A stretch of 64,000 nucleotides of DNA, taken from the NCBI GenBank assembly GCA_016176525.1, contig JACOWZ010000003.1, forward strand, positions 128,001-192,000. The letters run 5' to 3'. The notes beneath the pieces are model-generated. The model was not told the origin of the DNA, ran no database searches, and saw only the letters and a program-made list of their open reading frames with translations. Every line of letters begins with the position of its first letter. Position 1 is the stretch's first letter. The stretch comes from Candidatus Colwellbacteria bacterium. Its GTDB lineage: Bacteria; Patescibacteriota; Minisyncoccia; UBA6257; Colwellbacteraceae. Positions 2,484-36,009 of this stretch are shown piece after piece. The translations under genes were made by a program, and so were the position numbers.

Positions 2484-2858
2484 TTAATTAATACCCAACA
2501 ACGTTTTAACTTTTGAGACAACCTCTTCAAGCTTCCAATTTGTTTTTACCAAAAAGGTAAATACACCATGCCTAATGCCTTCGTCCACACTTGTCGCAGA
2601 AGAAAGGTTAGTAAGAATCACCACTTTAGCGCTTTTACCCCATTCATCTTTTCTTAGTTCCCTTAGCATTGTTATGCCGTCCATTTTTGGCATTATAATA
2701 TCTAAAAGTATTAGATCTGGCTTATTTGACAGCGCATTTTTTAAACCCTCTTCGCCGTTTACGGCCTTTAGCACATTAAAGCCCTCTCGTCCAAACTTCT
2801 CGTATAAAACGTTTAAAAGAGGTAGCTCGTCTTCTACTATTAAAATAGTTTTGTTCAT
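2484..2858 (-). CDS. Single-domain response regulator (CheY-like receiver)
   Basis: IVEDE...[10 protein letters not shown]...K pattern. Confidence 0.8.
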
Positions 2859-2870
2859 AAGTTAATTATA

Positions 2871-4283
2871 TCAAACCCCCCCCTCCGGCGAAAGTTTTCT
2901 GGTGCCAGATTTTTTCTCCATCCAGTTGACCGGCGCAGATATATAAAATGTAGTGCCTTTGTTTTCGACAGACTCAAACCAAATTCTGCCGGTGGTTTGG
3001 TCAAGAACTGATTTTATTATATACAAACCCAAGCCAGTTCCGCCAGAGTCAATAACACGTGCATTGTCCGCTCTAAAAAGTTTTTGAAATATTTTATTTT
3101 TTTGAGCCTCTGGAATGCCTATGCCCGTGTCCGATACCTTTATTAAAAGTTCTTTTTTGCCGCTCAAAGAAATATCAATATTAACTTTACCGCCTTCTGG
3201 AGTGTATTTAACGGCGTTAGATAATAGGTTTTGTAAGATTATGAGCACTAAATCTTTGTCTGCGGTAATCTTAGGAATCTTTGCACCATAATTTTCTATA
3301 AGCTCAATATTTTTCTTCTTCGCATCTATTCTTATTCCACTGCAAACACCTTTTGCAAAATCTTTAATATCTAATTGTTCCGGCTCCACAGTAAAAGAAC
3401 CTACTTCCAACCGCGACACATTTAGAAGTGCGTTTACAAGCTCAATCATGCGCCTGTTGCCTTCATTTACTTCTTCTAGATATTTCTTCTGGCTGATTGT
3501 TATTTTGCCAACGTCGCCGGAGAGAAGCATTTCTGTATACCAGCTTATTGCCGTAAGCGGGGTCCTTAATTGATGCGATGCTATAGCTATAAAATCTGCC
3601 TTTACTTTCTCAAGCTGAAGTTCTTCTGTAATATCTCTAAATACCAAGACAGCTCCTATTATTTTGCCGCTTAGAAATATCGGCGATACGGCCATATATA
3701 CGGGAAACTTATCTCCATTTCTCTTTTTTAAATATAAAGTGGTTTTTACCGAAACTGGGCCAGAAGAAACCATTTTTTTTAAACTAAAGGCCTTGCTGAT
3801 TAGCCTCTCTTTTTTGGGTAATTCTTTACCGTCTGCATTATATATATTTGTTATAGATAGCCAATTTTTGCCAATCATCTCATTATGCATAAAACCCAAC
3901 AATGTTTCAGCTGTCTCATTTACTTCAATCACATTATTATTTTCATCTATTGCAACAACGCCTTCTCCTATACTCGCCAAGATTGATTTTATTCTGGTGT
4001 TAATTGTTTCCAGCTCAACTTTCGTGATGTCTAGATCTTCTAAAATATTTAAAGCTGCAACTTTCGTATCTTCTAAATCTTTGTTTGCGCTAATCAGAGC
4101 TTGATTTCTTTCGTAGACTGCCTGTCTCGCCTCTTTAATTTCTGCCATAGACTTTTCAAAAGTTCTTGCTTCAGCGCCCAACCTCTCTAGCTTTTCTTTT
4201 AGCTTATTTCTACTTCTCCAAAAAAAGGATAAAATCCCCGCAAAAGCGGCTAAATTAAGCAATACAAATAGCAAAATTTGCAT
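2871..4283 (-). CDS. Sensor histidine kinase: N-terminal TM helix, coiled coil, PAS, HisKA, HATPase_c
   Basis: H-box ASHQLRTPL; G1/G2 boxes DTGIGIP and GTGLGL. Confidence 0.85.
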   Translation of the reverse strand: MQILLFVLLNLAAFAGILSFFWRSRNKLKEKLERLGAEARTFEKSMAEIKEARQAVYERNQALISANKDLEDTKVAALNILEDLDITKVELETINTRIKSILASIGEGVVAIDENNNVIEVNETAETLLGFMHNEMIGKNWLSITNIYNADGKELPKKERLISKAFSLKKMVSSGPVSVKTTLYLKKRNGDKFPVYMAVSPIFLSGKIIGAVLVFRDITEELQLEKVKADFIAIASHQLRTPLTAISWYTEMLLSGDVGKITISQKKYLEEVNEGNRRMIELVNALLNVSRLEVGSFTVEPEQLDIKDFAKGVCSGIRIDAKKKNIELIENYGAKIPKITADKDLVLIILQNLLSNAVKYTPEGGKVNIDISLSGKKELLIKVSDTGIGIPEAQKNKIFQKLFRADNARVIDSGGTGLGLYIIKSVLDQTTGRIWFESVENKGTTFYISAPVNWMEKKSGTRKLSPEGGV

Positions 4284-4289
4284 ATTCCT

Positions 4290-4661
4290 CTATTTTGCTT
4301 TTAAAAGCTGTGTTTTTACCTTTTCTATAACTTCTTTCAGCGGGTGGTTAGACTTTACAAAATAGTCCGCTGCACCAAGAGCCATTGATTTTTTAATATC
4401 TTCGTCGGTATCTAAGTTTGAAAGTATTATAACCGGCACCGATTTTAACTCTTCATCGTCTTTTATTTCTTTTAACACTTCGTACCCTCCTTTTTTGGGG
4501 AGTAAAAGATCTAAGAGCACGATATCCGGCTTAAATTCTTTGGCAGCTTTAAACGCAGAGCCTCCTTCGTAGACAACTTTTGTCTGATAACCTTCGTGCT
4601 TAAACTTATCGTCTAAGGCATCGGCTAAAGCCGCCTCATCTTCAACTATAAATATCTTCAT
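4290..4661 (-). CDS. Single-domain response regulator
   Basis: Receiver-domain motifs. C-terminal DYFVKSNHPLKEV is shared with the receiver of 4683-6746. Confidence 0.8.
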   Translation of the reverse strand: MKIFIVEDEAALADALDDKFKHEGYQTKVVYEGGSAFKAAKEFKPDIVLLDLLLPKKGGYEVLKEIKDDEELKSVPVIILSNLDTDEDIKKSMALGAADYFVKSNHPLKEVIEKVKTQLLKAK

Positions 4662-4682
4662 GGGGTTTATTATAGCACGCGC

Positions 4683-6746
4683 CTAAACGTCTGTCTGCCG
4701 CCGTATTTTTTTGATAATATCTTTAGTAATTTGGTCTCTAGCTTTAGTTCGCTCTTCTGTGATTTTTTGCGCTGCCTTTTTACGCTCTGCTTTAAATATC
4801 TTTTCTTTCTCGGCTCTAAGTTTCGCTTGATCGCGCACTTCATCTTCAGCAAGTATTGCCCGCGTTTTTGTGCGTTCTACACGAAGAGCCGCAGACGCCT
4901 TTGCGCGTTCTTTTGCAACCGCAGATGCAACACGGATTTTCGCCGCATGCACTGCCTCATGCGCCCTCTCGCGTACACTCCTTAAAAGTTTTTCTGTTTT
5001 TCGTGCGCGTGCGAGTGCAGCCTTTGCTCTTTCTTTCTCTGCTTTAATTTCGCCTTCGGCCTTGCTCTTTACAGCTTTTAGGCGCGCTTCTTCTAACTTC
5101 TTGTGAGCAGCTATACGCTTTGCTTTTTGATTCTTTAGGCGGGTTAATTCCAGTTTAACTTTTGCGAGCTCTTTTAAGATATCTCTTTCTTTCTTTTTCT
5201 CTTCCATTAAAGCGAATTTGGTTGCTTTATTTACTCCGCTTAGTTTGATTTTTTTCTTTAGCGCAGCAATTTTTGTCTTGGCTCTCTCTTTTTGGCTTGC
5301 AATCAACTTTGACTCTTTCTCTAGCGTTTTAATCGCCTCCCTCGCGCGCTCGCGCGCATCTCTAATCGCGGCTTTTGCTTTATGCCTTGCCTCTGCAATA
5401 CTTTTTTGCTTTTCTTTGGTTTTTTCCGCGAGAAGTTTTTTAACCCTTTCATGCTCTTTTGCAAGCGCAAGTTCCGCCTCTTCTTTCTCTTTCTCTGCCT
5501 GCTCGGCAGCTTTTTTAGCTTCAATAAGCGAAGAGTCGCGCAGGTCGCGCTCAACATGCGTAGATTCGGCAAGTTTTTCTTCTGCAGAAAGCGCTGCCGC
5601 TTCCGCTTTTCTCTTCTCTTCAAATATTGCCTCTTCTGCATCTTTCTTTAGTTTTGCAAGCGTCTCTTCTGCGCGCCTTCTTTCGTCTGCGAGCGCGGTT
5701 TCTGCGCGTTCGCGTTCAATTGCAAGCTTTTCTTCAGCTACCTTTTTCTCAACAAGCGCCGCCTCTGCCATTTGCTTTGCACGCTCTGCCTCCTCTGCTT
5801 TCTTTTTAGCCTCCACTAGGGCCTTGCGAGCTTTTTCTATCTCTGCAGCCGCGGCTTTGGATTTTTTCTTCTCGCGTAAAAGCGCTTCTTGAAGTTTAAC
5901 CTTTTCCCCAAGCACTTCTTCGGTCGAAGTTGCCTTTACCGCTTTCTCCTCTGCGCGCTTTTTCTCAATGGCAATAGAAGCAGTAGTTCTTTTTCTCTCT
6001 TCAACAAGCGCCGCTTCAGCCCGTCTGCGCTCTTCTTTAAGGGCTTCTTCTGCGCGCTTATGCTCTTTTTCAAGCGCTTCTTCTTTGCGCTTAGCTTCTT
6101 CTTCTATTTTTTTGTGTTCTACTTCTCTCTCTGCTTCTGCTCTCTCGCGCTCTTTTGCTGAAGCCTCGGCCGCCCTTGCCCTCTCGGCTTCATGTGCTGC
6201 TTCTCTCTTTCTTCTCTCTTCTGCAAGCGCCTTTGCTGCATGCTTTCGCTCTGCATCAAGTGCTTCGCGAGCTTGGGCCTTTTCTTTTTCGTGCGCAGCT
6301 TCTTCCTCTTTATGGCGTTTTACCTCTAGCGCAGTTTTCGCATCTTCAATATCGGCAGTAGTTGGCAGCTGCACCCCGGCGCGCTCCATTATTTCACTAG
6401 CTTTCTCTACAACTTCTTTCAACGGATGGCTAGCTTTAACAAAATAATCCACAGCGCCCAACCGCAAGGCGCGTTTAATATCTTCATCGTTGCCGAGGTT
6501 TGAGAGCATTATTACATCGGCTTTCTTAAGCTCGTTGTCTCTTTTTAGTTCTTGTAAAACTTCAAAACCGTCTTTTATCGGCAACAGAATATCCAGCAAT
6601 ATAACATCTGGCAAAAAACGCCTTGCAATATCTACAGCCTCGCCGCCATTTTGCGCAATTTCAGCCTCAAAACCACTTGTTATAAATTTATCGCGTAAAG
6701 CTTCGGCGAGCGCAACCTCATCTTCTACAATAAGAACTTTCGCCAT
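4683..6746 (-). CDS. Response-regulator receiver domain fused to a ~550-aa highly charged E/K/R/A-rich helical (coiled-coil or single alpha-helix) region
   Basis: N-terminal 125 aa is a CheY-like receiver (VEDE...LLDILLP). The rest is low-complexity AEEKR repeats. Long + strand S/A/F-rich ORFs are mirror-image artifacts. Confidence 0.75.
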   Translation of the reverse strand: MAKVLIVEDEVALAEALRDKFITSGFEAEIAQNGGEAVDIARRFLPDVILLDILLPIKDGFEVLQELKRDNELKKADVIMLSNLGNDEDIKRALRLGAVDYFVKASHPLKEVVEKASEIMERAGVQLPTTADIEDAKTALEVKRHKEEEAAHEKEKAQAREALDAERKHAAKALAEERRKREAAHEAERARAAEASAKERERAEAEREVEHKKIEEEAKRKEEALEKEHKRAEEALKEERRRAEAALVEERKRTTASIAIEKKRAEEKAVKATSTEEVLGEKVKLQEALLREKKKSKAAAAEIEKARKALVEAKKKAEEAERAKQMAEAALVEKKVAEEKLAIERERAETALADERRRAEETLAKLKKDAEEAIFEEKRKAEAAALSAEEKLAESTHVERDLRDSSLIEAKKAAEQAEKEKEEAELALAKEHERVKKLLAEKTKEKQKSIAEARHKAKAAIRDARERAREAIKTLEKESKLIASQKERAKTKIAALKKKIKLSGVNKATKFALMEEKKKERDILKELAKVKLELTRLKNQKAKRIAAHKKLEEARLKAVKSKAEGEIKAEKERAKAALARARKTEKLLRSVRERAHEAVHAAKIRVASAVAKERAKASAALRVERTKTRAILAEDEVRDQAKLRAEKEKIFKAERKKAAQKITEERTKARDQITKDIIKKIRRQTDV

Positions 6747-6767: not shown

Positions 6768-8504
6768 TTACTTTTCAATTTCACCAATTTGTTCGCCTAT
6801 ATATTTGGCAGAATTTGCCGTGTTTTCTTTAAGGCGCAAAAGCATGGTTTTAATTTCGCGTGCTTCGCGCTCGTCAATCTTTTGGTCGGCATATTTTACC
6901 ATAATAGCGTCAATTTCTTTTTCAACATTCTTAAAGGCATTTACCACATCGCGGCGGGTAATAAACAAATCTCTTGATCTTTTTTCAGAGAGCTTTTTTT
7001 CAAACCAAAAGCCGCCTGCAAATGCCCCAGCAAGGAAAATTATAGCAAGAACAAAAAACCAAGTTTTTGAAATGTCTATGCCAAAGAGAGATAAGAGAGG
7101 CTTGTCTTTAACAGTTATCTTACTTGTTTCTGCAGGCAAGCTCTGCGCACCGCGGGAATCAACTGTGGTTGCAAGTATCACATAATTGCCGCGCCTAATT
7201 GAGGCCTCGCTAAATTCGCCGCTCCAATTTCCGAGCGGGTCAACAGCTACATCTTTTTGCGCCGCTACATCTCCGCGTTCCGAGCGCAGGACAAGGCGCA
7301 CTTTCTCTTCGGCAAGCGCAGTGCCAGCAATGCTAATATTCTGCTCATCTAAAATTACTCTCTCACTAAAAAACGTAATAACAGGAGACTCAATCGGCAA
7401 AATTTCTATATCCAAACTTGCTTCTGTTCTATTGCCTGCGTTATCAACCGCGGCAACAACTATCGTGTGCGCCCCGGGCGGAAGAGGTTTAATTTTATAA
7501 GTTGTTTCGTTGGTGTATTCCACTTCGCCGCCTATCGCACGGATTGCATAGTGTTCTAATCCCGACAAATCGTCGCCAGATTGATAAGTGAGTGTTGGCG
7601 ATGGGTTGTCTGTTACACCATCGACATCTGAACTAATATTGAATTCTACAGGTGGTGCCGTATCTATTGCTATTCTATAGTGTGTTGTGGGGCCCCAGCC
7701 AATATTATTGCGAAAGCGCACATGGAGATACCAAATGCCGTCATCAAGCGGCACAAATTCGCGCGCTTCAAAAAGGCCTTCGGAGGTTACAGGGCTTGAT
7801 GTAGGTATTTTGTTTATCAGCGTATCTACATTTGTTACATCATCTGGTAAGCTCCAAATTGCGGAAAACTTTGATTTTATATTAAACCAGCCCTCGGGGT
7901 CGGGATAAAGCGGCACCTGAACTTCCGGTTTAACAGGCAGATTGCCTGTTGGCACAGCGGGGCGCTCAATTTGCACAGGCGGAGCAACCGGAGAGGGTGT
8001 TACGCCCGGCACAACTTGTGAACCGGCTAAAATATTAACTGTTACACCCTGAAATTCGCGGAGCACATTGGTGCCACTGCCATCCGAGGCAGTTACGGCA
8101 CCATCTAGAAAGGTAATATTGCCTTCTCCGCCGCCCTTAACCCTAAATGTAATATTTAAAACCTGAAGTGACTGGCCGGATTTGCCAGAAGTTGCCCCGC
8201 CAACGAAAGTGACTCTGCCTTCAGTGTTATCAAATGCAGGCTCCTCTAACCAAAAATTAAAAATAGAATCGGTTTTACTCAGACTTGTTACCTCTAAAAT
8301 ACTCGTAGGAAAACTTATTGCAGCTTCGGCAGCGTTCACGCCAATCCCTTCTGAATTTATCTGGACATCAACTGTTATTGTATCCCCAATAGCTGCTGTT
8401 TCTTTGTCAGATGAAAGCTTTAAAATAGCCGCGCTTGCAGTATTTACTCCAAAAAACACTGTAAACGTTGCCGCTACCAAAACTAGTCTTAAAAATTTAT
8501 TCAT
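6768..8504 (-). CDS. Cell-surface protein: signal peptide, cohesin-like domain, Ig/FN-like beta domains, C-terminal TM anchor and charged cytoplasmic tail
   Basis: N-terminal MNKFLRLVLVAATFTVFFGVNTASA. Cohesin-like segment (ITVDVQIN...ISFPTSILEV...ITFRVKG). TM helix WFFVLAIIFLAGAFAGGFWF near the C-terminus. Confidence 0.6.
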   Translation of the reverse strand: MNKFLRLVLVAATFTVFFGVNTASAAILKLSSDKETAAIGDTITVDVQINSEGIGVNAAEAAISFPTSILEVTSLSKTDSIFNFWLEEPAFDNTEGRVTFVGGATSGKSGQSLQVLNITFRVKGGGEGNITFLDGAVTASDGSGTNVLREFQGVTVNILAGSQVVPGVTPSPVAPPVQIERPAVPTGNLPVKPEVQVPLYPDPEGWFNIKSKFSAIWSLPDDVTNVDTLINKIPTSSPVTSEGLFEAREFVPLDDGIWYLHVRFRNNIGWGPTTHYRIAIDTAPPVEFNISSDVDGVTDNPSPTLTYQSGDDLSGLEHYAIRAIGGEVEYTNETTYKIKPLPPGAHTIVVAAVDNAGNRTEASLDIEILPIESPVITFFSERVILDEQNISIAGTALAEEKVRLVLRSERGDVAAQKDVAVDPLGNWSGEFSEASIRRGNYVILATTVDSRGAQSLPAETSKITVKDKPLLSLFGIDISKTWFFVLAIIFLAGAFAGGFWFEKKLSEKRSRDLFITRRDVVNAFKNVEKEIDAIMVKYADQKIDEREAREIKTMLLRLKENTANSAKYIGEQIGEIEK

Positions 8505-8523
8505 AATTCTAATATTAAGTATA

Positions 8524-11370
8524 TCATCTTCTTAATCCTCGTATAAATATGGAAAAGTCCGAAATGTCGGTTTTGCCGTCTTGGTTGAGATCTAGCGTAC
8601 CGCGCAAAGAGGTGTCGGTTGATGCCCAACGGAACAAAAATATGCTCCAATCGCTGATATTGGCTTTGCCGTCGCCGTTTAAGTCGGTTGCCGGCACTAG
8701 TAAAGTGGAGATAATAAAACTCTTAACAATGGATTTAGGCGATCTGGGTCCGAGATTTCTGTCTTGTTGCCAAACGCTTATAGCGTGGGTGCCAACGCCC
8801 AGATCTGCAGTATTCACCAGCAGTTTATACGAGCCAGTATCCGGATATTCCGGATCTACACCACCCTCCACGCCGTCAATTTCGTATTTAATGCTTGAAG
8901 TTACAAATTTAGAGCCGCTAACCGCCAAGAAATCTCCCTTGCGCACAGTAGCCCGCGAGAGCAATATTGTTGGAGGTAAAAATATGTTTTCTACCGATGT
9001 TAAACCTCTTTGAATGTTTACTTCATAAAAAGTGGACTGTGCAGATGCCCCAAACTTGTCTGTGGCCCTAATTGCGTAATAAAAAACATCCGGCTGGGTG
9101 CTCGTAAATTCAATATAGAAAAAGCCCGAAGTTTGCACCGGAATATTGCTATCAACTTCGTAAGTCGGAGCAAAAGTACTTCCGCCGCGAGCAAGCAACG
9201 ATAGCGAGGCGTCTGGATATGCTTTGCCATGAAAATAAAGTCTGCCGATAGGAGTCGCCCCGCCTGGCGGAGGTGGTGGCGGAGGCGGAGGCGGTGGTGG
9301 CGGAGGTGGCGGTCCTGGAGGCGGAGGTGGAGGTGGCGGAGAGGTATTAGTAGTTCCGCTCGGCACATTTGAAATAGCGGAAACATTCGGCACTTCATCT
9401 GAAGTTTTAAGCGCAAAAAAGTATGTAGTGCTCTCGGAAAGCCCTGTAACAGTCATAGACTCGGAACTGCCAGCTACAGATGGCGTAGGCTCGCCGCTTA
9501 CAGCAGTTGCGGAAGAAAAATTGCCGTCAGTTATGGTAGAGGTTGAATACCTTATATCATAACTTGTGGCAGTCCCCGTACTTCCATCGTCCCCCGGCGC
9601 AGTCCAGTCGAGATCAAGTGTAGATGACGACGGGTTTGAAGCCGCTAGATCGCTTACTGCCGCAGGCGCGGTTGTGTCGGCAGATGCGGAAGTGGTGCCA
9701 CTTGGAATATTGGAAATAGCAGAAGTATTTGGCACTTCGTCAGATGTTTTGAGCGCAAAGAAGTATGTGGTACTCGCAGAGAGCCCCGTCACTGTTTTTG
9801 ATTCTGACGAACCAGCGACAGAAGGAGTAGGTTCTCCAGAAACTTGTGTAGCAGAAGAAAAATTGCCGTCGGTTATAGTTGAAGTAGAATAACGCAAATC
9901 ATAAGTAGTGGCAGTTCCCGTGTTTCCGTCGTCCCCTGGAGCCGTCCATGTAACTACAATAGACGAAGACGTAACCGAGCCGGTGGCTAAATCACTTACT
10001 GCTGCCGGCGCGGTAGTGTCCCCCGCTGCAGCAGGTGTAAATGGGCTTCCAGTCGGTACAACGCCGGTAGCGGAATAGTTCACATCATCGTCGCGGGTGT
10101 AGATGCGGTAATGGTACGCGGTGCCGTTTGTAAGGCCTGTATCCGTGCACGATGTAGACGATGTCACGCAGGCAACAGTTGAGGAACCGATGGTATTGCC
10201 GACTACATATGTTGTCCCCTCGGTTGGAGTATCGGAGGTGGCGGCGCCGGCTCTGCGCAAGATAATCGTGCTTGTATAGTCGGAATCGGCCGGGTTAGTC
10301 CAAGAAAGAGAAACCTGCGCGTCACCTGCCGTGCCAGTTGCGCCCGTGACATTTGCCGGCGACTCGTTGTCGATTGTGACTGTGGCGGAGTTGGTGTCGG
10401 TTCCTGCTTGTGTGTTGGTGCTTGTGAAAGCGGTAATTGTGCCGGTCACAGAATAAGTTGAGCCAGAAGGCGCGGGCATGTCGGCGTGTGATTTTGGAGT
10501 GATACGAATTTTGAATGAGGTGAGAGTTGTTGTGACAGGAATCCCGCAGCTTGTAAGCGAGACGGTGCTTGAGGCTGGGTCGACCTGCGAACAATACGTA
10601 GTAGAACCAGCGTTATTTGTTATCTCAACAAGCGAGAGACCGCCGGAAACGCCTGATGCTAAGGTTGCAGTCGCCGCTGTAACTGTGTCTGTGCCGGTTG
10701 AAGTTTGGAGAGTAAATGTATCAAGTTCGGTGGCAGAAGCGCCTGGGGCGATAGAGGAATTTGAGGGATTCGTGCCGTTGCCGATGGTCGTTGTCGCCGC
10801 GGGAGGAGTATATGTAACTGTTATCCATAAGTAATCAAAATGAATGGCGTCGGCTGCTCCGCCGTCGTTCGAGGTAAACTCAATATCAATATTTTGTATT
10901 TCGCTCAAGGTATCAACACCAGCCGAGAAAAGATTGTAGCTCTGCTCCGCGCTAAAACCAGTGATGTCGGTTGGAGTAATTGTTGTGTTTGTTAGCCCTC
11001 CGCCGTTGTCATAACGCACAGAATTTGTGCCGTTATACCCATCTTCAGCGCCGAACTGCAAACGGAGAGACACAGCAGTAATAGTAGAGCCAACTGGAAT
11101 CGACGAAACATCAAAAGTTATAAACTGCATAACAGCGCCTTTATCTACAGTGTAAACCCCATCGCTTGCAACAACCGCAGAAAGTGTGTCTGGGTCTACA
11201 GATGAATTATCGGTTGTAATTTCACTAAGCGCTTCGCCTGTGTTGTCGTTGGCATGCTTTGCATTAGGCACAGCGTTTAGCGTGTCTGCCAAAACCAGAG
11301 ATGTGCCATCAAAAAACCCAAACAAAACAACAATAGCAATAATAAATATAAAAAACTTAATTAACTTCAC
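8524..11370 (-). CDS. Large secreted protein: signal peptide, beta-rich domains, two tandem FN3-like repeats, poly-proline linker, C-terminal type-I dockerin
   Basis: Dockerin Ca-binding repeats DLNGDGKANISD and DLNQDGKTDISD. PPPPPPPPGPPPPP... tract. Two 114-aa near-identical repeats. Confidence 0.7.
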   Translation of the reverse strand: MKLIKFFIFIIAIVVLFGFFDGTSLVLADTLNAVPNAKHANDNTGEALSEITTDNSSVDPDTLSAVVASDGVYTVDKGAVMQFITFDVSSIPVGSTITAVSLRLQFGAEDGYNGTNSVRYDNGGGLTNTTITPTDITGFSAEQSYNLFSAGVDTLSEIQNIDIEFTSNDGGAADAIHFDYLWITVTYTPPAATTTIGNGTNPSNSSIAPGASATELDTFTLQTSTGTDTVTAATATLASGVSGGLSLVEITNNAGSTTYCSQVDPASSTVSLTSCGIPVTTTLTSFKIRITPKSHADMPAPSGSTYSVTGTITAFTSTNTQAGTDTNSATVTIDNESPANVTGATGTAGDAQVSLSWTNPADSDYTSTIILRRAGAATSDTPTEGTTYVVGNTIGSSTVACVTSSTSCTDTGLTNGTAYHYRIYTRDDDVNYSATGVVPTGSPFTPAAAGDTTAPAAVSDLATGSVTSSSIVVTWTAPGDDGNTGTATTYDLRYSTSTITDGNFSSATQVSGEPTPSVAGSSESKTVTGLSASTTYFFALKTSDEVPNTSAISNIPSGTTSASADTTAPAAVSDLAASNPSSSTLDLDWTAPGDDGSTGTATSYDIRYSTSTITDGNFSSATAVSGEPTPSVAGSSESMTVTGLSESTTYFFALKTSDEVPNVSAISNVPSGTTNTSPPPPPPPPGPPPPPPPPPPPPPPPPGGATPIGRLYFHGKAYPDASLSLLARGGSTFAPTYEVDSNIPVQTSGFFYIEFTSTQPDVFYYAIRATDKFGASAQSTFYEVNIQRGLTSVENIFLPPTILLSRATVRKGDFLAVSGSKFVTSSIKYEIDGVEGGVDPEYPDTGSYKLLVNTADLGVGTHAISVWQQDRNLGPRSPKSIVKSFIISTLLVPATDLNGDGKANISDWSIFLFRWASTDTSLRGTLDLNQDGKTDISDFSIFIRGLRR
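9266..9340. repeat. (GGN)n tract encoding the poly-Pro linker on the minus strand
   Basis: ggcggaggtggtggcggaggcggagg... seen in sequence. Confidence 0.8.
9345..10030. repeat. Tandem direct repeat, ~342 bp x 2 (FN3-like modules of the dockerin protein)
   Basis: cacttcatctgaagtttt at 9391 and cacttcgtcagatgtttt at 9733. Long near-identical blocks by eye. Confidence 0.7.
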
Positions 11371-11400: not shown

Positions 11401-11922
11401 TTACTTTAAGCTCTTTATCTTTTTTTTCAGCTCAACCATCTTGAGCTCTCTGCCAACCATAAATTTATTCATTCTCTCAATCTCTTTTGTGTGACGCTCG
11501 GCTTCTTTCTGACTTTCCACCTCTTTTGTTATGTCTCTAAAAATCTCTATAGAGCCAATTGGCTTATTATCTAAAATAATCGGCGAGGCGGTTATAAAGA
11601 CCGGGAAAACACTGCCGTCTTTTCTAACATAGTTTGATGTGCCGCTTACAGACTCCCCCGTTTGCAAAGATTTAGTAACCAATCTATCTGTAGCCGGCAC
11701 CGGTCTGCCGTCATTATCTATATCTTTAACCACATCCGGAAACCACTTGCCTAAAAGGTCGCTTTCTTCGCATCCAAGGAAACTAAGGGCGGGTTTATTT
11801 ACTTTATTAATTTTCCCGCTCTCGTCTATTGCAATAAAGCCGTCGCCAATACTTTCTATTGTCGCCTCAAGACGCAAACGCTCTTCTGTAATTTTCGCGT
11901 TCTCATCTGTATTTTTAACCAT
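11401..11922 (-). CDS. PAS-domain sensor protein with C-terminal helix ending in MNKFMVGRELKMVELKKKI motif
   Basis: PAS signature (GDGFIAIDESGKI...N.A...LG). No output enzyme domain. Confidence 0.7.
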   Translation of the reverse strand: MVKNTDENAKITEERLRLEATIESIGDGFIAIDESGKINKVNKPALSFLGCEESDLLGKWFPDVVKDIDNDGRPVPATDRLVTKSLQTGESVSGTSNYVRKDGSVFPVFITASPIILDNKPIGSIEIFRDITKEVESQKEAERHTKEIERMNKFMVGRELKMVELKKKIKSLK

Positions 11923-25834: not shown

Positions 25835-27310
25835 TTATTTATTTAACGGCCCTGTAATACTGATTCCTTTTTTATTGATTTCATATTCTATAATTTCTTT
25901 TTCATGCCATGAGCCGCGAAGTTTTAAAATATTAAGAACGTTTATAATCTTTTTTTCGCGCTCTATATAGCGGGCTAGAATTACGCCGTCAACGAGCGAG
26001 CTTAGGCGAAGCGCTGTTGCGGATGTGGGCCCGAAGGTCTGTGGCGGAACAGATACGAATAAACTTGGCTCTAAGTGATTCACATACGCCGTGATGCCCT
26101 CGCTCTTTAAAAAGAAGTTTAGCTGGACTAAAAATTCGCGAACAAGTTCAAGAGGAATTTTACGCGATTCAATTGAAGATATTGAGTCAATTAAAATCCG
26201 TTTTGTATCCGGCTTATTTTTGGCTGCATTCACTATTTTATAGAGCAGCTTATCAAGATTGGTGTCTAGAAGACTCTCGCTAACAAATGCAAGTTGGCCG
26301 GATTTCTTAAATTTCTCGAGATCAAAGCCATATTCAGCCGCTGTTTTAACAATCTGTTCTGGCGGCTCTTCCATCGTCAGATAAATAACATCTTCTCCTT
26401 TTAGCAAGCCGTCCATAAGAAAATGCAGGCCAAAGGTTGTCTTGCCGGTGCCGGTGTTTCCGCTTATTAGCATTAAGTGCCCATAAGGAACTCCGCCACC
26501 CAGCATCTTGTCTAAAGCGGGCAGGCCGCTTGAGAGCCTTTCTGTAATATCAGTTTTAAAAGTGGAGCTGTAAGATGGAATTTTGGGGTAAATAATAACT
26601 CCATCGCCTGTGATATCAAAAATAACCTGACCGCTTCTGTAAGATACGCCGCGCATCTTTTCTACGTTCAACCTGCGGATCATAGACTGTTCCCCAAGAG
26701 TGTAGTTCAGCACAATAATTCCATCCGCCACAGAGTCTTCTACTCCGAATACCGACAAGCCCTGGTTATTTCTTTCAGCTATTAATAAGAGAGTCGCATT
26801 TCTAATTGACATAGCCCTTATAAGCCTTGAGAGAAATACCCTTGCCGTGGCCACATCTGTAAGCCTATATAAAAATCCTGTAATGTTGTCAAAAACCACT
26901 CGTTTTGAGCCAAGTTTATCAACTAAATTGGTAATAGCTTGAACAACTGCATTTATATCTTTTGAATCCAACTTTTTTTCCTCAAGATTCCGGCCTTTTA
27001 CCAAAATTTCTAAGTCAGAAAAATAAACTCCTGCTTCATCCACCGCGCTCTGGCTATAAAACCCAAGGGTTCTAGTATTTTTTATAGCCGAAGCAATAGG
27101 CTCCGTTGTGCTTATGTATACTCCCGGCTCTTTAAACTTTGTATAACCGGTAAATAGCCACTGCAAGCCAATAACAGTTTTTCCCGTACCGGGCTGACCA
27201 GAAAGTATAACAGAAGAACCTTCCACCAACCCGCCATTTAAAACCGAATCCAGGCCGGGAATTCCCATGGGCTGAATTTGCAATTTTTCCTCTACAAGCG
27301 GTTTTTTCAT
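25835..27310 (-). CDS. KaiC-like double RecA-domain ATPase
   Basis: Two Walker A motifs (SGQPGTGKT, SGNTGTGKT), each preceded by G.P.LD..L.GG. Confidence 0.8.
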   Translation of the reverse strand: MKKPLVEEKLQIQPMGIPGLDSVLNGGLVEGSSVILSGQPGTGKTVIGLQWLFTGYTKFKEPGVYISTTEPIASAIKNTRTLGFYSQSAVDEAGVYFSDLEILVKGRNLEEKKLDSKDINAVVQAITNLVDKLGSKRVVFDNITGFLYRLTDVATARVFLSRLIRAMSIRNATLLLIAERNNQGLSVFGVEDSVADGIIVLNYTLGEQSMIRRLNVEKMRGVSYRSGQVIFDITGDGVIIYPKIPSYSSTFKTDITERLSSGLPALDKMLGGGVPYGHLMLISGNTGTGKTTFGLHFLMDGLLKGEDVIYLTMEEPPEQIVKTAAEYGFDLEKFKKSGQLAFVSESLLDTNLDKLLYKIVNAAKNKPDTKRILIDSISSIESRKIPLELVREFLVQLNFFLKSEGITAYVNHLEPSLFVSVPPQTFGPTSATALRLSSLVDGVILARYIEREKKIINVLNILKLRGSWHEKEIIEYEINKKGISITGPLNK

Positions 27311-28213: not shown

Positions 28214-28546
28214 TTACTCATCCATTAGCTTTTTTTCAATCTTCGCCGCATGCTCCACACCCTCATCTATAACAAAATTCAGTTGGGGCACTGTGCGTAT
28301 ATTTAATATTCTAATAAGTTTGTAATGCAAGCCGCCTGAAGATTTTTTCAGCTGATCAACTATTTCTACAGCTTTTCCGTCTGGAAATACGCTTACGCCA
28401 ATTTTTGCAGAGTTTAAGTCACTGGAGAGCTCAACACTCGTTAAGCTAACCAAAACTCCAGAGGGAAGATCAAGTTCGCGCGCAATAAGCTTGCTAAGCT
28501 CTTGCTCAATCAGGCTCTCCAACTTAGGCTGGCGTTTAATGTCCAT
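28214..28546 (-). CDS. rbfA: Ribosome-binding factor A
   Basis: Size, position next to infB, and KH-like sequence pattern. Confidence 0.7.
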   Translation of the reverse strand: MDIKRQPKLESLIEQELSKLIARELDLPSGVLVSLTSVELSSDLNSAKIGVSVFPDGKAVEIVDQLKKSSGGLHYKLIRILNIRTVPQLNFVIDEGVEHAAKIEKKLMDE

Positions 28547-29964
28547 TAATAAACTTTAATTATATCTCCCGGCTGCACCATAAAAACCGAATCCAGCATT
28601 ATTCCACACTCACCCTCACTTACTTCTCGCCTATCCTCTTTACCTTGCTGAAGGTTAACAATTCTTCCTTCGCCTACTTTTTCGCTACCCCGATGAATAT
28701 CTGCATCCGAATTATTCTGCACAACACCAGAGGCAACCTTACACCCTACAACTTGCTTTTTGCCCTTAACGCTAAATACTTTTAGAACCTCCAATTGCCC
28801 CCTGGCTTGCGAGCCAGACTCGCCCTTTATATAACTCTCTAAATCTTCTAAAAGCTTGTATATAATATCGTGTTTAATTATCTGAATATTCTGGACTCTG
28901 GCCAAGCTTTCGGCGCCCTTATCGGGCTCTACACCAAACCCCAAAATAACACTGCCGGTGTTTTTAGCCATATTTACATCATTGGATGTAATCTCTCCAA
29001 CCGATGCGTCCAACACCTGCACTTTTGCCCCAACTAGTTCGCGCAAGGCTTCTAAAGATCCTGCAACATCGGCTTTAAGCACTGCCTTTATTCTTTCTTC
29101 ACCTTCGCCACTCGGAGCAACTGCCGATGCTTCTTTTTGCAAACCTGGTTCTTTGCCAACCCCCCAAATTTCGCCAACTTTAGGAATAGCCTCCCAGCCA
29201 AGAATTCTAATGGGCATTGATGGTATAGCGTATTTAATTCTCTTGCCGAGAAAGTCTTCCATAATTTTTACTTTGCATGCTGCAGAGTCCGTGCCAATTT
29301 CGTCTCCTATTTTTAGTTCGCCGTCTTTTATAATACAGCTCGCTACAATCCCTCTGCGGCTGTCTTTGTGCGCTTCAATAATAAAGCCTTTACCTTTTGC
29401 TGCAGTATCATATTTTAATTCTTCAAGCTCGCCTAAAAGAACAATTAAACTTAAAAGCTCTTCAATCCCCTCGCCGCTAACAGTTGATGTGCCATGCCAG
29501 CTAACATCGCCCCCATATTTTTCTAGCATAACACCCATATGCCCTAGCTCGCGCGCAGCGCGCTCAATATCCGCATTGTTTTTATCTATTTTAGTGAGTG
29601 CAACTATAAAAGGCGTTTCAGTTTTTTTTAGAATCTCTATCGCTTCTTTTGTCTGCGGCTTTACGCCATCATCTGCGGCAACAACAAGTATTGCAACATC
29701 TGCCACAGCCGCACCGCGCCTGCGCATTGCAGAGAATGCCTCGTGGCCCGGGGTGTCAATAAATGTAATTTTTTTGCCGTCTTTTTCTACCTCATATGCG
29801 CCTGTTGCCTGCGTTATGCCGCCGGCTTCACGCGCAGCAATGTTGGTCTTGCGAATATAGTCCAGCAAACTAGTCTTGCCATGGTCAACATGGCCGACAA
29901 CAACGACCACGGGGGGCCTTGTAAGTAATGTTTCTTTAGTTTTAGTAGCAGTTTTTGAGGCCAT
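28546..29964 (-). CDS. infB: Translation initiation factor IF-2 (short form: G domain to C-terminus)
   Basis: GHVDHGKT, DTPGH, NKID motifs. Confidence 0.85.
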   Translation of the reverse strand: MASKTATKTKETLLTRPPVVVVVGHVDHGKTSLLDYIRKTNIAAREAGGITQATGAYEVEKDGKKITFIDTPGHEAFSAMRRRGAAVADVAILVVAADDGVKPQTKEAIEILKKTETPFIVALTKIDKNNADIERAARELGHMGVMLEKYGGDVSWHGTSTVSGEGIEELLSLIVLLGELEELKYDTAAKGKGFIIEAHKDSRRGIVASCIIKDGELKIGDEIGTDSAACKVKIMEDFLGKRIKYAIPSMPIRILGWEAIPKVGEIWGVGKEPGLQKEASAVAPSGEGEERIKAVLKADVAGSLEALRELVGAKVQVLDASVGEITSNDVNMAKNTGSVILGFGVEPDKGAESLARVQNIQIIKHDIIYKLLEDLESYIKGESGSQARGQLEVLKVFSVKGKKQVVGCKVASGVVQNNSDADIHRGSEKVGEGRIVNLQQGKEDRREVSEGECGIMLDSVFMVQPGDIIKVY

Positions 29965-33510: not shown

Positions 33511-34500
33511 TTACTTACGCTTTACAACACGCCTTACTGCAGAGACAATATCTTTTACACCCATACCGTATTTTTCTATAACCTCGTTTGGCGGGCCAGA
33601 TTCACCGAACACTCCCTGCATACCTATAAACTCTTGAGGAGTCGGATAATTCTTAGCTAACACCTCTGCGACTGCAGAACCCATGCCTCCCGCAACTTGG
33701 TGCTCTTCAACAGTTACAACCGCACCGCATTTTTTAGCAACTTCTATAATCTTTCTCTCGTCCATCGGCTTAACAGTATGGTTATTTAAAACGATTGTGC
33801 CTATTTTTATTTTCTCCAGCTCTTTAGCGGCTAAAAGCGCGTTGTACAAAAGCGGGCCGCAGCCAATAATCGCGCACTGCGGCTTTTTAGATTCCCAAAA
33901 AACTTCGGCTTTGCCCGGCGTATAAGGCGTAGATTCGGTTGTAAAAACCGGAGACTTTTCGCGGGCAAAACGTATGTAAATCGGGCCCCAGATTTTGGCT
34001 GCGGCGACGGTCGCCTTTTTGGCCTCAACTGCATCGCAAGGCACAAAAACTTTCATATTTGCCATAACACGCATTGTCGCGATGTCTTCCACTGCTTGGT
34101 GCGTTGCGCCGTCTGGGCCGACCGAGACTCCCGCGTGCGAACCGGCAATTTTAACATTAGAATCATTGTAAGAAATAGTGGTTCTAATTTGCTCCCAATT
34201 TCTGCCTGGAGAAAAAGTTGCATAAGAAGAAATAAATGGAACTTTGCCGGAAATTCCCAAACCAGCTGCAATAGTTGCCATATTTTGTTCGGCAACGCCC
34301 ATTTCTATAAATCTCTCCGGGTATTTTTTAGAAAAAGCTTCTGAACGCGTAGACTCTGTTAAATCTGCGCAGAGCACTACAACGTTTTTGTCTGCCTCGC
34401 CTGCGACAAGTAGGCCTTCACCATAACCATTGCGTGTAGGCGCTTGTTTTATATCATCCTTAAATACTTCCGGGCTCAATTTTGCTTCTTTGTTTATCAT
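33511..34500 (-). CDS. tktB: Transketolase C-terminal subunit (pyrimidine-binding and C-terminal domains)
   Basis: Split transketolase pattern (...GVAEQNM...GPDGATHQ...). Confidence 0.85.
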   Translation of the reverse strand: MINKEAKLSPEVFKDDIKQAPTRNGYGEGLLVAGEADKNVVVLCADLTESTRSEAFSKKYPERFIEMGVAEQNMATIAAGLGISGKVPFISSYATFSPGRNWEQIRTTISYNDSNVKIAGSHAGVSVGPDGATHQAVEDIATMRVMANMKVFVPCDAVEAKKATVAAAKIWGPIYIRFAREKSPVFTTESTPYTPGKAEVFWESKKPQCAIIGCGPLLYNALLAAKELEKIKIGTIVLNNHTVKPMDERKIIEVAKKCGAVVTVEEHQVAGGMGSAVAEVLAKNYPTPQEFIGMQGVFGESGPPNEVIEKYGMGVKDIVSAVRRVVKRK

Positions 34501-35384: not shown

Positions 35385-36009
35385 TATATGCTCTTTGTGG
35401 ACTCCTACTTTTAAATATGTAAGATGCCGAGACCGCGATATCTGCGCCGGCGTCTTTCGCGAGTTTTGCAACTTCCGGCTCTACACCACCATCAACTTCA
35501 ATTTTAACATGTCTTTGCTCCCCACGTAAGAATTTAATTTTTTTAAGTGCAGATACATCAAACTTTTGGCCCGCAAAACCGGGCTCAACCGCCAAAAACT
35601 GGAAAGAGTCAAAAATACCAAAATATTTCTTTAGCCACTCTGCCGGAGTACGCACGCCGCAAGCGAGCATTGCCTCAACCCCATGTTTTTTACAAAGCGC
35701 GGCCACACGGACAGGGTCGCGCAAAGATTCTATATGGAATATAAGCCTCTTCGCGCCAGATTTGAGCCAGCTTTTAAGCACGACTTCTGGGTGCGCGACC
35801 ATAAGATGAATTTCAAAATTGATATGGCTGTACTTGTGAGTGAGTTCTATAACTTCACCTGGGCTGCCCCAAGTCACAACATTTGCAAACTCACCATCTA
35901 CAACATCAATATGCACCCAGCCCGACGCGCTAAAAAAACTGTCTGCTTTTTTTATTTGCTTTAATGCAGAGTCTCTATCTTTGCAGTTTATTGCAGGTAT
36001 AACCAACAT
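35365..36009 (-). CDS. rpe: Ribulose-phosphate 3-epimerase
   Basis: HIDVVDG, HLMV, EPGFAGQ, VDGG motifs. Confidence 0.85.
   Translation of the reverse strand: MLVIPAINCKDRDSALKQIKKADSFFSASGWVHIDVVDGEFANVVTWGSPGEVIELTHKYSHINFEIHLMVAHPEVVLKSWLKSGAKRLIFHIESLRDPVRVAALCKKHGVEAMLACGVRTPAEWLKKYFGIFDSFQFLAVEPGFAGQKFDVSALKKIKFLRGEQRHVKIEVDGGVEPEVAKLAKDAGADIAVSASYIFKSRSPQRAYNELTRI

What the first reader, a model, noticed from the sequence alone, without database searches (positions are those of the whole stretch)
4683..6746. Response-regulator receiver fused to a ~550-residue E/K/R/A charged helix
After a normal CheY-like receiver the protein continues for about 1.6 kb as uninterrupted ERKA-type low complexity (AERKHAAKALAEERRKREAAHEAERARAAE...). 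This is the composition of stable single alpha-helix (ER/K) or long coiled-coil rulers. A phosphorylatable domain on a very long charged rod is an unusual architecture. The neighbouring receivers (2484-2858, 4290-4661) share the DYFVK.NHPLKEV C-terminus, indicating tandem duplication followed by fusion.
Basis: seen in the sequence. Interest (0 to 1): 0.55.

Follow-up and report, generated by a model that had tools for sequence, protein, structure and literature searches.

The report
Receiver domain on an 11-residue-repeat helical rod
An ultrasmall Candidatus Colwellbacteria bacterium encodes a signalling switch (a phosphorylatable receiver domain) hinged to a roughly 80-nm charged alpha-helical rod of about 50 eleven-residue repeats; the gene is real and conserved in a few relatives, resembles the Myxococcus scaffold regulators FrzS/AglZ in layout only, and has no demonstrated function.

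Summary
Window 4683-6746 (-) is one 687-aa ORF: a canonical CheY-like receiver (residues 1-120), a Gly/Pro hinge, then a 562-residue tail of A/E/K/R.

The tail is not featureless low complexity.
- It has a strong 10.65-11-residue periodicity, consensus [RK]-A-E-[EA]-A-[LI]-x-E-E-[RK]-[KR], about 50 units.
- It has no heptad signal.
- AlphaFold2 splits it into four long helices with three breaks.
- Its last ~250 residues are net basic.

It is not an assembly artefact. The exact protein is encoded on three independently assembled contigs. Collinear orthologues lie at the same position in two other metagenomes, directly after a cohesin-domain membrane anchor, and differ mostly by indels of about one repeat unit.

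Closer and more distant Parcubacteria carry only a plain ~123-aa receiver there. The gene therefore looks like a lineage-restricted duplicate of that receiver (58% identical to its neighbour) that acquired the repeat tail.

The tail matches no Pfam or NCBIfam family and nothing in about 1.8 billion representative proteins.

The closest known architecture is FrzS/AglZ. Here, however, the receiver keeps all phospho-site residues and the rod fits neither a heptad coiled coil nor a classical ER/K single helix.

Verdict: new variant of a known kind. The scaffold/rod function is inferred, not shown.

The parts
4683..6746 (-). Whole gene: 687-aa response regulator (REC + hinge + 562-residue helical repeat tail).
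   Evidence: ORF list. The exact protein is called on 3 independently assembled contigs. Orthologues: L012 5445-7952 and L097 4555-5670.
6387..6746 (-). CheY-like receiver domain, residues 1-120. Active-site residues E8/D9, D52 (codon 6591-6593), S82, K104 and switch Tyr101 are all present and invariant in the three orthologues.
   Evidence: Pfam PF00072, 1.1e-19. Best PDB relative is Thermotoga RR468, 3dge_C, 2e-15. Alignment.
6354..6386 (-). Hinge, residues 121-131 (ERAGVQLPTTA), with Gly124 and Pro128. Gly and Pro are also present in both orthologues.
   Evidence: AF2 coil at residues 123-129. Alignment.
5934..6359 (-). Helix 1 of the tail, residues 130-271. Near-neutral hendecad-type repeats such as ALEKEHKRAEE / ALKEERRRAEA / ALVEERKR.
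   Evidence: AF2 secondary structure, pLDDT 74-81. Periodicity.
6029..6104 (-). The only DNA-level tandem repeat left in the gene: 33 nt x 2.3 copies, 81% match, equal to one 11-residue unit.
   Evidence: TRF. L012 has 33/66-nt repeats at 6255-6421, within a region where it carries residues that the window protein lacks.
5565..5924 (-). Helix 2, residues 275-394. It lies in the best-conserved tail block (residues 271-400: 57-61% identity to orthologues, as high as the receiver).
5241..5549 (-). Helix 3, residues 400-502. The net charge of the tail turns positive from about residue 440.
4689..5222 (-). Helix 4, residues 509-686. Basic (about +6 to +11 per 50 residues), less conserved (32% identity), and includes a Leu-rich stretch, ILKELAKVKLELTRL. 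It follows a conserved break: SGVNKA here, KQPEPRG in L012.
4290..4661 (-). Paralogous stand-alone receiver, 123 aa, 58% identical to the receiver of the tailed protein. It corresponds to the plain receiver found in relatives.
   Evidence: NCBI name 'response regulator [Candidatus Colwellbacteria bacterium]', MBI2013357.1.
2871..4283 (-). PAS-HisKA-HATPase histidine kinase, the likely phosphodonor. It starts 6 nt downstream of the preceding gene.
   Evidence: Pfam. ORF spacing.
2484..2858 (-). Third stand-alone receiver, 39% identical, a different subfamily.
6768..8504 (-). Cohesin/Big_13 single-pass membrane anchor with an 80-aa cytoplasmic helical tail. It ends 21 nt upstream of the tailed regulator. 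This family is followed by a receiver gene in nearly all relatives examined.
   Evidence: Pfam. 453 homologues at E<=1e-10. Synteny. Tail retention.
8524..11370 (-). FN3-repeat, dockerin-bearing surface protein, the presumed partner of the cohesin anchor.
   Evidence: Pfam fn3 and Dockerin_1. Same gene order in L012, L102 and L103.
11401..11922 (-). PAS-only protein at the head of the gene string.
   Evidence: Pfam.

Best explanation
The gene encodes a lineage-restricted response regulator of a Candidatus Colwellbacteria (Parcubacteria/CPR) bacterium whose output is structural, not enzymatic or DNA-binding by any recognisable domain.

SHOWN
- A canonical receiver with every phospho-site residue is joined by a Gly/Pro hinge to about 543 helical residues, roughly 80 nm if fully extended.
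- The tail is built from about 50 degenerate 11-residue units, [RK]AE[EA]A[LI]xEE[RK][KR], arranged as four long helices.
- The front of the tail is near-neutral and well conserved; the rear ~250 residues are basic and poorly conserved.
- The gene sits in a tight string: dockerin surface protein, cohesin membrane anchor, REC-rod, REC, PAS histidine kinase, REC.
- Relatives have only a plain receiver at this position. The rod differs between orthologues mostly by indels of about one repeat unit, and 33/66-nt DNA repeats are still visible.

INFERRED
- The gene arose by duplication of the anchor-adjacent receiver, and the tail grew by unit duplication.
- The adjacent PAS kinase phosphorylates Asp52.
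- Because the hinge prevents direct helical transmission, phosphorylation most likely acts through receiver dimerisation or partner switching on the alpha4-beta5-alpha5 face. That would bring two rods into register so that the thin Ala/Leu stripe can pair. The stripe is one large hydrophobic residue every three turns, nearly parallel to the helix axis. The result would be a change in assembly state or location of a long rod or scaffold, as in FrzS/AglZ-type regulators.
- The basic rear segment may hold the rod on an anionic surface such as membrane or nucleic acid.
For: Architecture.

Periodicity and consensus unit:
-; conserved in the orthologues.
- LIVMFWY peak power 17.3-18.8, against a shuffle mean of 5.8 and a highest single shuffle of 16.9.

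Real gene:
- Identical protein on 3 independent contigs.
- Orthologues L012 (835 aa) and L097 (at least 372 aa, cut by the contig end) at the syntenic position.

Selection on the tail:
- Global alignment scores are 9.6-15 SD above controls in which 11-mer blocks are shuffled.
- Residues 271-400 are 57-61% identical, against 59-65% for the receiver.
- Hydrophobic, acidic and basic classes are each conserved about 2-3 times above the class frequencies.

Growth by units:
- Indel lengths are 10, 11, 11, 11, 11, 13, 15 and 21 residues.
- 33-nt and 66-nt tandem repeats remain.

Origin by duplication:
- 58% identity to the adjacent receiver.
- Relatives L098, L095, L103 and L101/102 have cohesin followed by a plain REC; in L096 the kinase comes first.

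Phospho-competence: E8, D9, D52, S82, K104 and Y101 are read directly from the sequence and are invariant.

Operon: intergenic gaps are 2-21 nt and no terminator-like site lies on the minus strand between the genes.

Precedent for REC plus a long coiled coil acting as a localisation scaffold: FrzS/AglZ (PMC1974792; PMC12632262).
Against: - There is no experimental or co-variation evidence for dimerisation.
- Mean hydrophobic moment is 0.21-0.22, only about 2 SD above shuffled sequence (0.176 +/- 0.023), and there is no 3.5-3.67 harmonic. The rod could equally be a monomeric charged helix.
- The AF2 model is single-sequence, pTM 0.29, and the receiver itself is poorly modelled.
- Foldseek found nothing significant.
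- Only three lineages carry the gene, and close relatives lack it, so it is dispensable for the conserved surface/two-component module.
- No partner of the rod is identified.
- The rear half is weakly conserved (30-32% identity).
Confidence: 0.55

Rival explanations
1. The tail is a true monomeric single alpha-helix (ER/K- or EAAAK-type SAH). It acts as a stiff spacer that holds the receiver a fixed distance from whatever the basic C-terminal segment binds.
For: - 51% charged residues plus 21% Ala, almost no Gly or Pro, and AF2 predicts long uninterrupted helices.
- E->K/R at i+3 is enriched (56 observed against 34.7 expected, z=5.0), as is K/R->E at i+4 (z=2.7).
- Amphipathicity is weak.
- The charge asymmetry between a neutral front and a basic rear is conserved in L012.
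Against: - The hallmark E(i)->K/R(i+4) pairing is not enriched (z=0.4).
- Charge density is well below classical SAHs.
- A regular L/I every 11 residues, flanked by Ala, is conserved between orthologues, which a pure SAH does not need.
- There is no C-terminal globular domain to be spaced.
- Three helix breaks are predicted.
Confidence: 0.22
2. The tail is a tolerated product of runaway repeat expansion: low-complexity 'junk' appended to a duplicated receiver. It has no specific function, and the protein works, if at all, as one more stand-alone receiver or phosphate sink.
For: - Patchy distribution: the tail gene is absent where the cohesin-anchor protein of the neighbouring gene is 59%, 56% and 55% identical to the window's.
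- Tail length varies, 562 against about 710 residues.
- 33/66-nt repeats are still visible.
- No homologue of the tail exists anywhere else.
- The rear half is only 30-32% identical.
Against: - The tail stays in frame over 1.7-2.1 kb in three lineages whose receivers are only 59-65% identical.
- Collinear alignment is 9.6-15 SD above block-shuffled controls.
- A 130-residue block is as conserved as the receiver.
- The repeats have diverged at the DNA level, so most are old and have been maintained.
Confidence: 0.13
3. The 11-residue repeats form a lipid- or surface-binding amphipathic helix of the apolipoprotein / alpha-synuclein / LEA class, or a PspA/Vipp1-like membrane-remodelling hairpin polymer, recruited to the membrane under receiver control.
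For: - 11-mer periodicity, as in those families.
- Basic residues flank the L/A stripe.
- The top, non-significant, Foldseek hits are Vipp1/PspA hairpins (E=0.04-0.4).
- The gene lies next to a membrane anchor.
Against: - Mean hydrophobicity is -0.43.
- The apolar face is only about one Leu and one or two Ala wide.
- There is no Pfam PspA/IM30 or apolipoprotein hit even at E<=10.
- No Foldseek hit has E<=0.001.
Confidence: 0.1

Closest known systems
FrzS and AglZ of Myxococcus xanthus (receiver-like domain plus a long C-terminal coiled coil; polar scaffold regulators of motility)
   Same: The domain order is the same: an N-terminal receiver fold followed only by a very long alpha-helical region with no enzymatic or DNA-binding output. 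For both, the likely output is protein localisation or scaffolding. FrzS has a 258-residue coiled coil predicted to dimerise (PMC1974792, PMC12632262).
   Different: - FrzS and AglZ are pseudo-receivers that lack the phospho-acceptor Asp and do not bind Mg2+ (PMC1974792). Here all five catalytic residues are present.
- The tail here is twice as long, has an 11-residue rather than a heptad periodicity, and is far more charged and Ala-rich.
- No sequence relationship was detected: nothing resembling the tail was found in the exhaustive search.
- The gene context is a cohesin/dockerin surface module in a CPR bacterium, not a Frz chemosensory or pilus system.
ER/K single alpha-helix (SAH) domains (myosin VI/X, caldesmon, MAP-type linkers) and engineered (EAAAK)n rigid linkers
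   Same: The composition is dominated by E, K, R and A. It is predicted as very long uninterrupted helices. i/i+3 and i/i+4 opposite-charge pairs are enriched.
   Different: - The charged fraction is only 51%.
- E(i)->K(i+4) is not enriched.
- There is a regular conserved L/I stripe every 11 residues.
- There is no flanking C-terminal domain.
- Three breaks divide the rod.
   Same: There is an 11-residue repeat with Ala and small residues in the seam, ERKRA-type charged runs, and a very low hydrophobic moment (0.18 for E. coli b against 0.21 here). That fits a straight or slightly right-handed, weakly associating pair of helices.
   Different: - No Pfam ATP-synt_B hit even at E<=10.
- No membrane anchor.
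- About 4-5 times longer.
- The 11/3 harmonic expected for an a/d/e/h core is weak (power 3.0).
Stand-alone CheY-like receivers of Parcubacteria encoded after the cohesin anchor (for example MBI2013357.1, P0086, and the 127-aa REC in L101)
   Same: The receiver belongs to the same subfamily: the DYFVK[SA]xHP[IL]KEV motif and 51-71% identity. The genomic position is also the same.
   Different: These proteins end a few residues after helix alpha5. Only the window, L012 and L097 (and probably L100) copies carry the rod.

Membership tests
CheY-like receiver / response regulator (Pfam PF00072) | Profile match above the curated threshold | tested here: met
   71.1 bits against a cutoff of 30.2, residues 4-107. 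Top PDB matches are all canonical receivers.
CheY-like receiver / response regulator (Pfam PF00072) | Five catalytic residues (acidic pair, phospho-acceptor Asp, Ser/Thr, Lys) plus the aromatic switch residue | tested here: met
   E8, D9, D52, S82, K104 and Y101 were read from the sequence and are invariant in the window, L012 and L097 proteins.
CheY-like receiver / response regulator (Pfam PF00072) | Cognate histidine kinase and actual phosphotransfer | not testable with these tools
   A PAS-HisKA-HATPase kinase lies two genes downstream in the same gene string. Phosphotransfer needs biochemistry.
FrzS/AglZ-type scaffold regulators | N-terminal receiver fold followed only by a long helical or coiled-coil region | tested here: met
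   REC residues 1-120, then 543 helical residues and no other domain.
FrzS/AglZ-type scaffold regulators | Atypical pseudo-receiver lacking the phospho-acceptor Asp (PMC1974792) | tested here: not met
   Asp52 and all other catalytic residues are present.
FrzS/AglZ-type scaffold regulators | Sequence homology to FrzS or AglZ | not tested
   No FrzS or AglZ sequence was available for a direct comparison. No FrzS receiver appears by name among the 60 best PDB matches. No protein of any kind matched the tail.
FrzS/AglZ-type scaffold regulators | Heptad-based coiled coil | tested here: not met
   Spectral power is 2.9 at period 3.5 and 17.3-18.8 at period 10.65.
ER/K single alpha-helix (SAH) | Very high E/K/R content with few hydrophobic residues | tested here: not met
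   Charged residues 51%, Ala 21%, LIVMF(WY) 17%.
ER/K single alpha-helix (SAH) | Enrichment of E(i)->K/R(i+4) salt-bridge pairs | tested here: inconclusive
   E->K/R at i+4 is 36 against 34.3 (z=0.4). However, E->K/R at i+3 has z=5.0 and K/R->E at i+4 has z=2.7.
ER/K single alpha-helix (SAH) | Monomeric, stable helix in solution | not testable with these tools
   Needs CD and AUC or SEC-MALS.
Hendecad coiled coil (for example the ATP synthase b stalk) | 11-residue periodicity of apolar residues | tested here: met
   Peak at 10.65-10.8 in every third of the tail and in the full-length orthologue L012. In the truncated L097 the 10.6 peak is second to its 5.3 harmonic. Autocorrelation peaks at 11, 21/22, 32 and 43.
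Hendecad coiled coil (for example the ATP synthase b stalk) | a/d/e/h core giving an 11/3 = 3.67 harmonic, and helix pairing | tested here: inconclusive
   Power at period 3.67 is only 3.0. When Ala is counted, residues 301-480 show a 3.6 peak of 9.1. Pairing cannot be tested with these tools.
Class A amphipathic 11-mer lipid-binding repeats (apolipoprotein, alpha-synuclein, LEA) | High hydrophobic moment with a broad apolar face | tested here: not met
   Hydrophobic moment 0.21-0.22 against 0.27-0.30 for the references and 0.18 for shuffled sequence.
PspA/Vipp1 (ESCRT-III-like) | Profile or fold match | tested here: not met
   No Pfam hit at E<=10. Best Foldseek E=0.042, TM-score 0.13/0.27.

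The most novel reading that the evidence does not exclude
The REC-rod could be a new class of response-regulator output: a phosphorylation-gated mechanical or spatial element. On Asp52 phosphorylation, an ~80-nm hendecad rod would switch between a single helix and a paired or assembled state. It would physically couple the cytoplasmic tail of the cohesin-dockerin surface (attachment) complex to the cell interior, through its basic rear segment binding membrane or nucleoid. The cell itself is only about 200-300 nm across (cell size from general knowledge of CPR bacteria). This would make it a minimal cytoskeletal tether for episymbiont attachment.
Probability: 0.12. Interest if true: 0.75.

Novelty: new variant of a known kind. 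Interest (0 to 1): 0.45.

Why it matters
CPR/Patescibacteria have few recognisable transcription factors and many stand-alone receivers, so how their two-component systems produce an output is largely unknown. Here one receiver of a conserved module (surface complex plus two-component system) has acquired a conserved, very long helical rod.

If the rod is functional, it is a tractable example of signalling through protein assembly or geometry rather than gene regulation, in an organism whose cell is only a few rod-lengths wide. It is also a natural test case for the boundary between single alpha-helices and hendecad coiled coils.

If the rod is not functional, it documents how a 33-nt unit expansion can build a 560-710-residue helix on a duplicated signalling domain.

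The practical lesson is that standard homology searches missed the orthologues entirely, probably through composition-bias filtering and because these proteins are absent from the protein collections. Only synteny recovered them.

Tried and rejected
1. Whole-protein word-indexed search and exhaustive phmmer against 1.84 billion representatives. Both returned only receiver-level hits; none of the 167 retrieved proteins has an ERKA-rich stretch above 54%.
2. Tail-only search: no hit at E<=0.001.
3. Genome (GTDB) and metagenome locus scans with the protein and with a 2-sequence alignment. The back-translated patterns fell in the receiver. Of 91 loci, none other than L012 contained a REC plus ERKA tail.
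4. Pfam at E<=10 and NCBIfam at E<=1 on the tail: nothing.
5. PDB sequence search: receiver hits only.
6. Foldseek of the AF2 model against the PDB: no hit with E<=0.001, only generic helical hairpins.
7. Assembly or frameshift artefact: rejected.
8. Shadow ORFs on the + strand (for example 5218-5892 and 5968-6447): rejected as low-complexity mirror frames, because orthologue conservation and indels follow the minus-strand frame.
9. Heptad coiled coil: rejected by the spectral analysis.
10. Lipid-binding amphipathic repeat: judged unlikely from the hydrophobic moment.
11. Type IV pilus link. The nearest GTDB receiver (L009, Candidatus Niyogibacteria) sits next to pilB/pilC, but no pilus family turned up in the 29 window proteins scanned against Pfam, so this was not pursued.
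12. Possible relation of the unit ERKRAEEAL to the inter-PAS linker motif of PAS kinases. This is why the word search pulled out PAS hybrid kinases. It is noted as a lead only; there is no evidence of homology.
13. Special conservation of the cohesin anchor's cytoplasmic tail. The tail is retained but is no more conserved than the ectodomain, so it gives no support for a specific REC-anchor contact.
Full report
**1. Is it there?**

Yes. Window 4683-6746 on the minus strand is a single 687-codon ORF. Pfam finds one domain, Response_reg, at residues 4-107 (71.1 bits against a cutoff of 30.2). Residues 126-687 are 21% Ala, 19% Glu, 18% Lys and 10.5% Arg, with one Pro and three Gly.

The + strand ORFs inside the gene are mirror frames of the low-complexity sequence.

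The organism is a MAG of Candidatus Colwellbacteria (Parcubacteria, CPR). RecA and the neighbouring receiver of the window are NCBI proteins MBI2013399.1 and MBI2013357.1, on a 644,793-nt contig. The upstream gene carries locus tag HYS87_00800.

**2. Not an artefact**

The exact 687-aa product is called on three independently assembled contigs: the MAG contig and two Logan assemblies of different runs, SRR12113430 and SRR12113384.

The same receiver-tail junction occurs in two orthologues from unrelated metagenomes:
- L012 5445-7952 (835 aa, Logan SRR22387915).
- L097 4555-5670 (at least 372 aa, cut by the contig end; ENA ERZ27254861).

**3. Anatomy of the tail**

The tail is periodic, not featureless.
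- Hydrophobic residues, basic residues and Ala all peak at a period of 10.65-10.8 residues in every third of the tail.
- The LIVMFWY peak power is 17.3-18.8. The highest peak of each of 200 shuffles averaged 5.8; the single highest shuffle peak, 16.9, came close to the observed value.
- Autocorrelation peaks fall at 11, 21/22, 32 and 43.
- Acidic residues peak at half that period.
- There is no heptad signal (power 2.9 at 3.5), and only a weak 11/3 harmonic (3.0 at 3.67).

Anchoring on the L/I positions gives the unit [RK]-A-E-[EA]-A-[LI]-[AK]-E-E-[RK]-[KR], about 50 copies.

On an alpha-helix this places one large hydrophobic residue every three turns, with Ala at i-4 and i-1. That is a stripe one residue wide, running almost parallel to the axis.

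Mean hydrophobic moment is 0.21-0.22, against:
- 0.176 +/- 0.023 for shuffles;
- 0.27-0.30 for apoA-I and alpha-synuclein;
- 0.37 for GCN4;
- 0.18 for the E. coli ATP-synthase b stalk.

Opposite-charge pairs are enriched for E->K/R at i+3 (z=5.0) and K/R->E at i+4 (z=2.7). They are not enriched for the classical SAH pair, E->K/R at i+4 (z=0.4).

Single-sequence AlphaFold2 predicts helices at 130-271, 275-394, 400-502 and 509-686 (pLDDT mostly 75-89). Breaks fall at 272-274, 395-399 and 503-508, and there is a coil hinge at 123-129. That is about 543 helical residues, or about 80 nm at 0.15 nm per residue.

The front of the tail is near-neutral. The last ~250 residues carry about +40 net charge. 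The same polarity is seen in L012.

**4. Conservation and evolution**

The three orthologues align collinearly.
- Global alignment scores of the tails are 9.6-15 SD above controls in which 11-residue blocks of the partner are shuffled. This is positional orthology, not shared composition.
- Identity is 59-65% in the receiver, 46-49% in residues 131-270, 57-61% in residues 271-400, and 30-32% after residue 400.
- Indels between the window and L012 proteins are mostly about one unit long (10, 11, 11, 11, 11, 13, 15 and 21 residues).
- A 33-nt x 2.3 DNA repeat persists at window 6029-6104.
- 33/66-nt repeats lie at L012 6255-6421, within a region where L012 carries residues that the window protein lacks.

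The receiver is 58% identical to the adjacent stand-alone receiver (4290-4661) and 39% identical to the third one (2484-2858).

The upstream cohesin/Big_13 anchor belongs to a large Parcubacteria family: 453 homologues at E<=1e-10, found in Colwellbacteria, Wolfebacteria and Uhrbacteria.

In relatives, the anchor gene is followed by a plain receiver of 123-127 aa from the same subfamily:
- L098 (anchor protein 59% identical to the window's), L095, L103, and Wolfebacteria L101/L102.
- In L096 a kinase follows the anchor, and then receivers.

The tailed gene is thus confined to the window genome, L012 and L097. L100 probably has it too: its partial receiver is 71% identical but is cut before the tail.

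The simplest history is duplication of the anchor-adjacent receiver, followed by growth of a C-terminal extension through unit duplication. This is an inference.

**5. Searches for relatives of the tail**

No relatives were found.
- Word-indexed search of the whole protein returned only receiver hits.
- The tail alone gave no hit at E<=0.001.
- Exhaustive phmmer over 1.84 billion representatives gave a top 150 that all matched through receivers; none is ERKA-rich.
- GTDB and metagenome locus scans found none other than L012.
- Pfam at E<=10 and NCBIfam found none.
- PDB sequence search and Foldseek (best E=0.042) found none.

The exact sequences of the window and L012 proteins are not in the clustered protein collection. 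That explains why only synteny recovered the orthologues.

**6. Context**

All the genes below are on the minus strand, with gaps of 2-21 nt from the anchor gene onward:
- PAS-only protein (11401-11922);
- FN3/dockerin surface protein (8524-11370);
- cohesin/Big_13 single-pass anchor with an 80-aa cytoplasmic tail (6768-8504);
- REC-rod;
- REC;
- PAS-HisKA-HATPase kinase (2871-4283);
- REC;
- ThyA;
- HIT protein.

No terminator-like site lies on that strand between them. None of the receivers in this gene string has a recognisable DNA-binding output.

**7. How it most likely works**

Shown:
- A receiver with all catalytic residues (E8, D9, D52, S82, K104, switch Y101) that are invariant in the orthologues.
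- A flexible Gly/Pro hinge.
- A long, segmented helical rod with a conserved thin L/A stripe and a basic rear.
- Co-location with a kinase and a surface complex.

Inferred:
- The PAS kinase phosphorylates D52.
- Because the hinge breaks helical continuity, the signal is probably transmitted by receiver dimerisation or partner exchange. That would bring rods into register or change where the rod is held.
- The protein would therefore act as a phospho-regulated scaffold or rod, functionally analogous to FrzS/AglZ. FrzS is a receiver-like domain plus a 258-residue coiled coil required for polar localisation (PMC1974792); it is predicted to dimerise via the coiled coil (PMC12632262).

Confidence in the anatomy and evolutionary claims is high. 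Confidence in the mechanism is moderate to low.

Rivals:
- A monomeric SAH spacer (0.22).
- A tolerated repeat expansion without specific function (0.13).
- A membrane-binding amphipathic or PspA-like polymer (0.10).

**8. Comparison with known systems**

It works most like FrzS/AglZ but is not a member of that family. Those are pseudo-receivers without the acceptor Asp; here the Asp is present. The periodicity is 11, not 7, and no sequence relationship to them was tested.

It fails the compositional and i/i+4 criteria of ER/K SAHs. It also lacks the second domain that a ruler would space.

It shares the 11-residue period and low amphipathicity of hendecad stalks such as ATP-synthase b, but without any profile match.

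**9. Verdict**

This is a real, conserved but narrowly distributed gene. It is a new variant of the 'receiver plus long helical rod' architecture, with a canonical receiver and a hendecad-type charged rod, in a CPR bacterium next to a cohesin-dockerin surface module.

It is moderately interesting (0.45). The architecture has precedent and the function is unproven. On the other hand, the repeat geometry, the conservation of the tail and the context make it a good experimental handle on non-transcriptional two-component output in ultrasmall bacteria.

Noticed in passing
window 6768-11370 (-); L012, L097, L095, L098, L103, L101/L102: The gene order dockerin-bearing giant surface protein, then cohesin/Big_13 single-pass anchor, then a receiver gene (usually followed by a PAS kinase) is conserved across Colwellbacteria and Wolfebacteria and probably other Parcubacteria. 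The anchor keeps an ~80-aa cytoplasmic helical tail in 120 homologues. A full-text search for papers containing Parcubacteria, cohesin and dockerin together returned none.
   Followed up: partly
window approx. 9240-9325 (-), inside ORF 8524-11370: A run of about 27 residues that is almost pure proline (PPPPPPPPGPPPPPPPPPPPPPPPPGG) separates the FN3 repeats from the C-terminal dockerin-containing part of the surface protein.
   Followed up: no
window 4669-4697 (-): A sigma-70-like site, CAGACA-17-TATAAT with an extended -10 TG (10 of 12 matches), lies inside the last codons of the REC-rod gene, just upstream of the next receiver. It could be an internal promoter, but the number of such sites in the region equals the chance expectation.
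   Followed up: no
(database behaviour, not a coordinate): The REC-rod proteins of the window and of L012 are absent from the clustered protein collection, although their neighbours are present and the genes are called on the contigs. Standard homology searches therefore miss this family, and only synteny found it.
   Followed up: yes
window 4683-6368 (-) versus PAS-kinase hits P0001 and P0007: The repeat unit E-R-K-R-A-E-E-A-L is the same word as the helical linker that precedes PAS domains in many PAS histidine kinases (for example ITERKRTEEALQESEERF in P0001). That is why the word search returned PAS hybrid kinases. It could be coincidence, or a hint at the origin of the unit.
   Followed up: no
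L009 9845-13239: In Candidatus Niyogibacteria the closest GTDB receiver (51% identity over residues 46-113) is a stand-alone REC. It lies between a histidine kinase and type IV pilus/T2SS genes (GspE/PilB-like ATPase, PilC-like protein).
   Followed up: no
window 25835-27310 (-): A full two-domain KaiC homologue (Pfam ATPase/KaiC, 6e-96) in a CPR genome.
   Followed up: no
window 33511-35471 (-) and 28546-29964 (-): Transketolase is split into separate N-terminal and C-terminal genes. IF-2 is short, at 472 aa.
   Followed up: no
window 11401-11922 (-): A PAS-only 173-aa protein with a short charged helical C-terminus heads the surface-protein/two-component gene string. In L012 a receiver gene occupies that position instead.
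   Followed up: no
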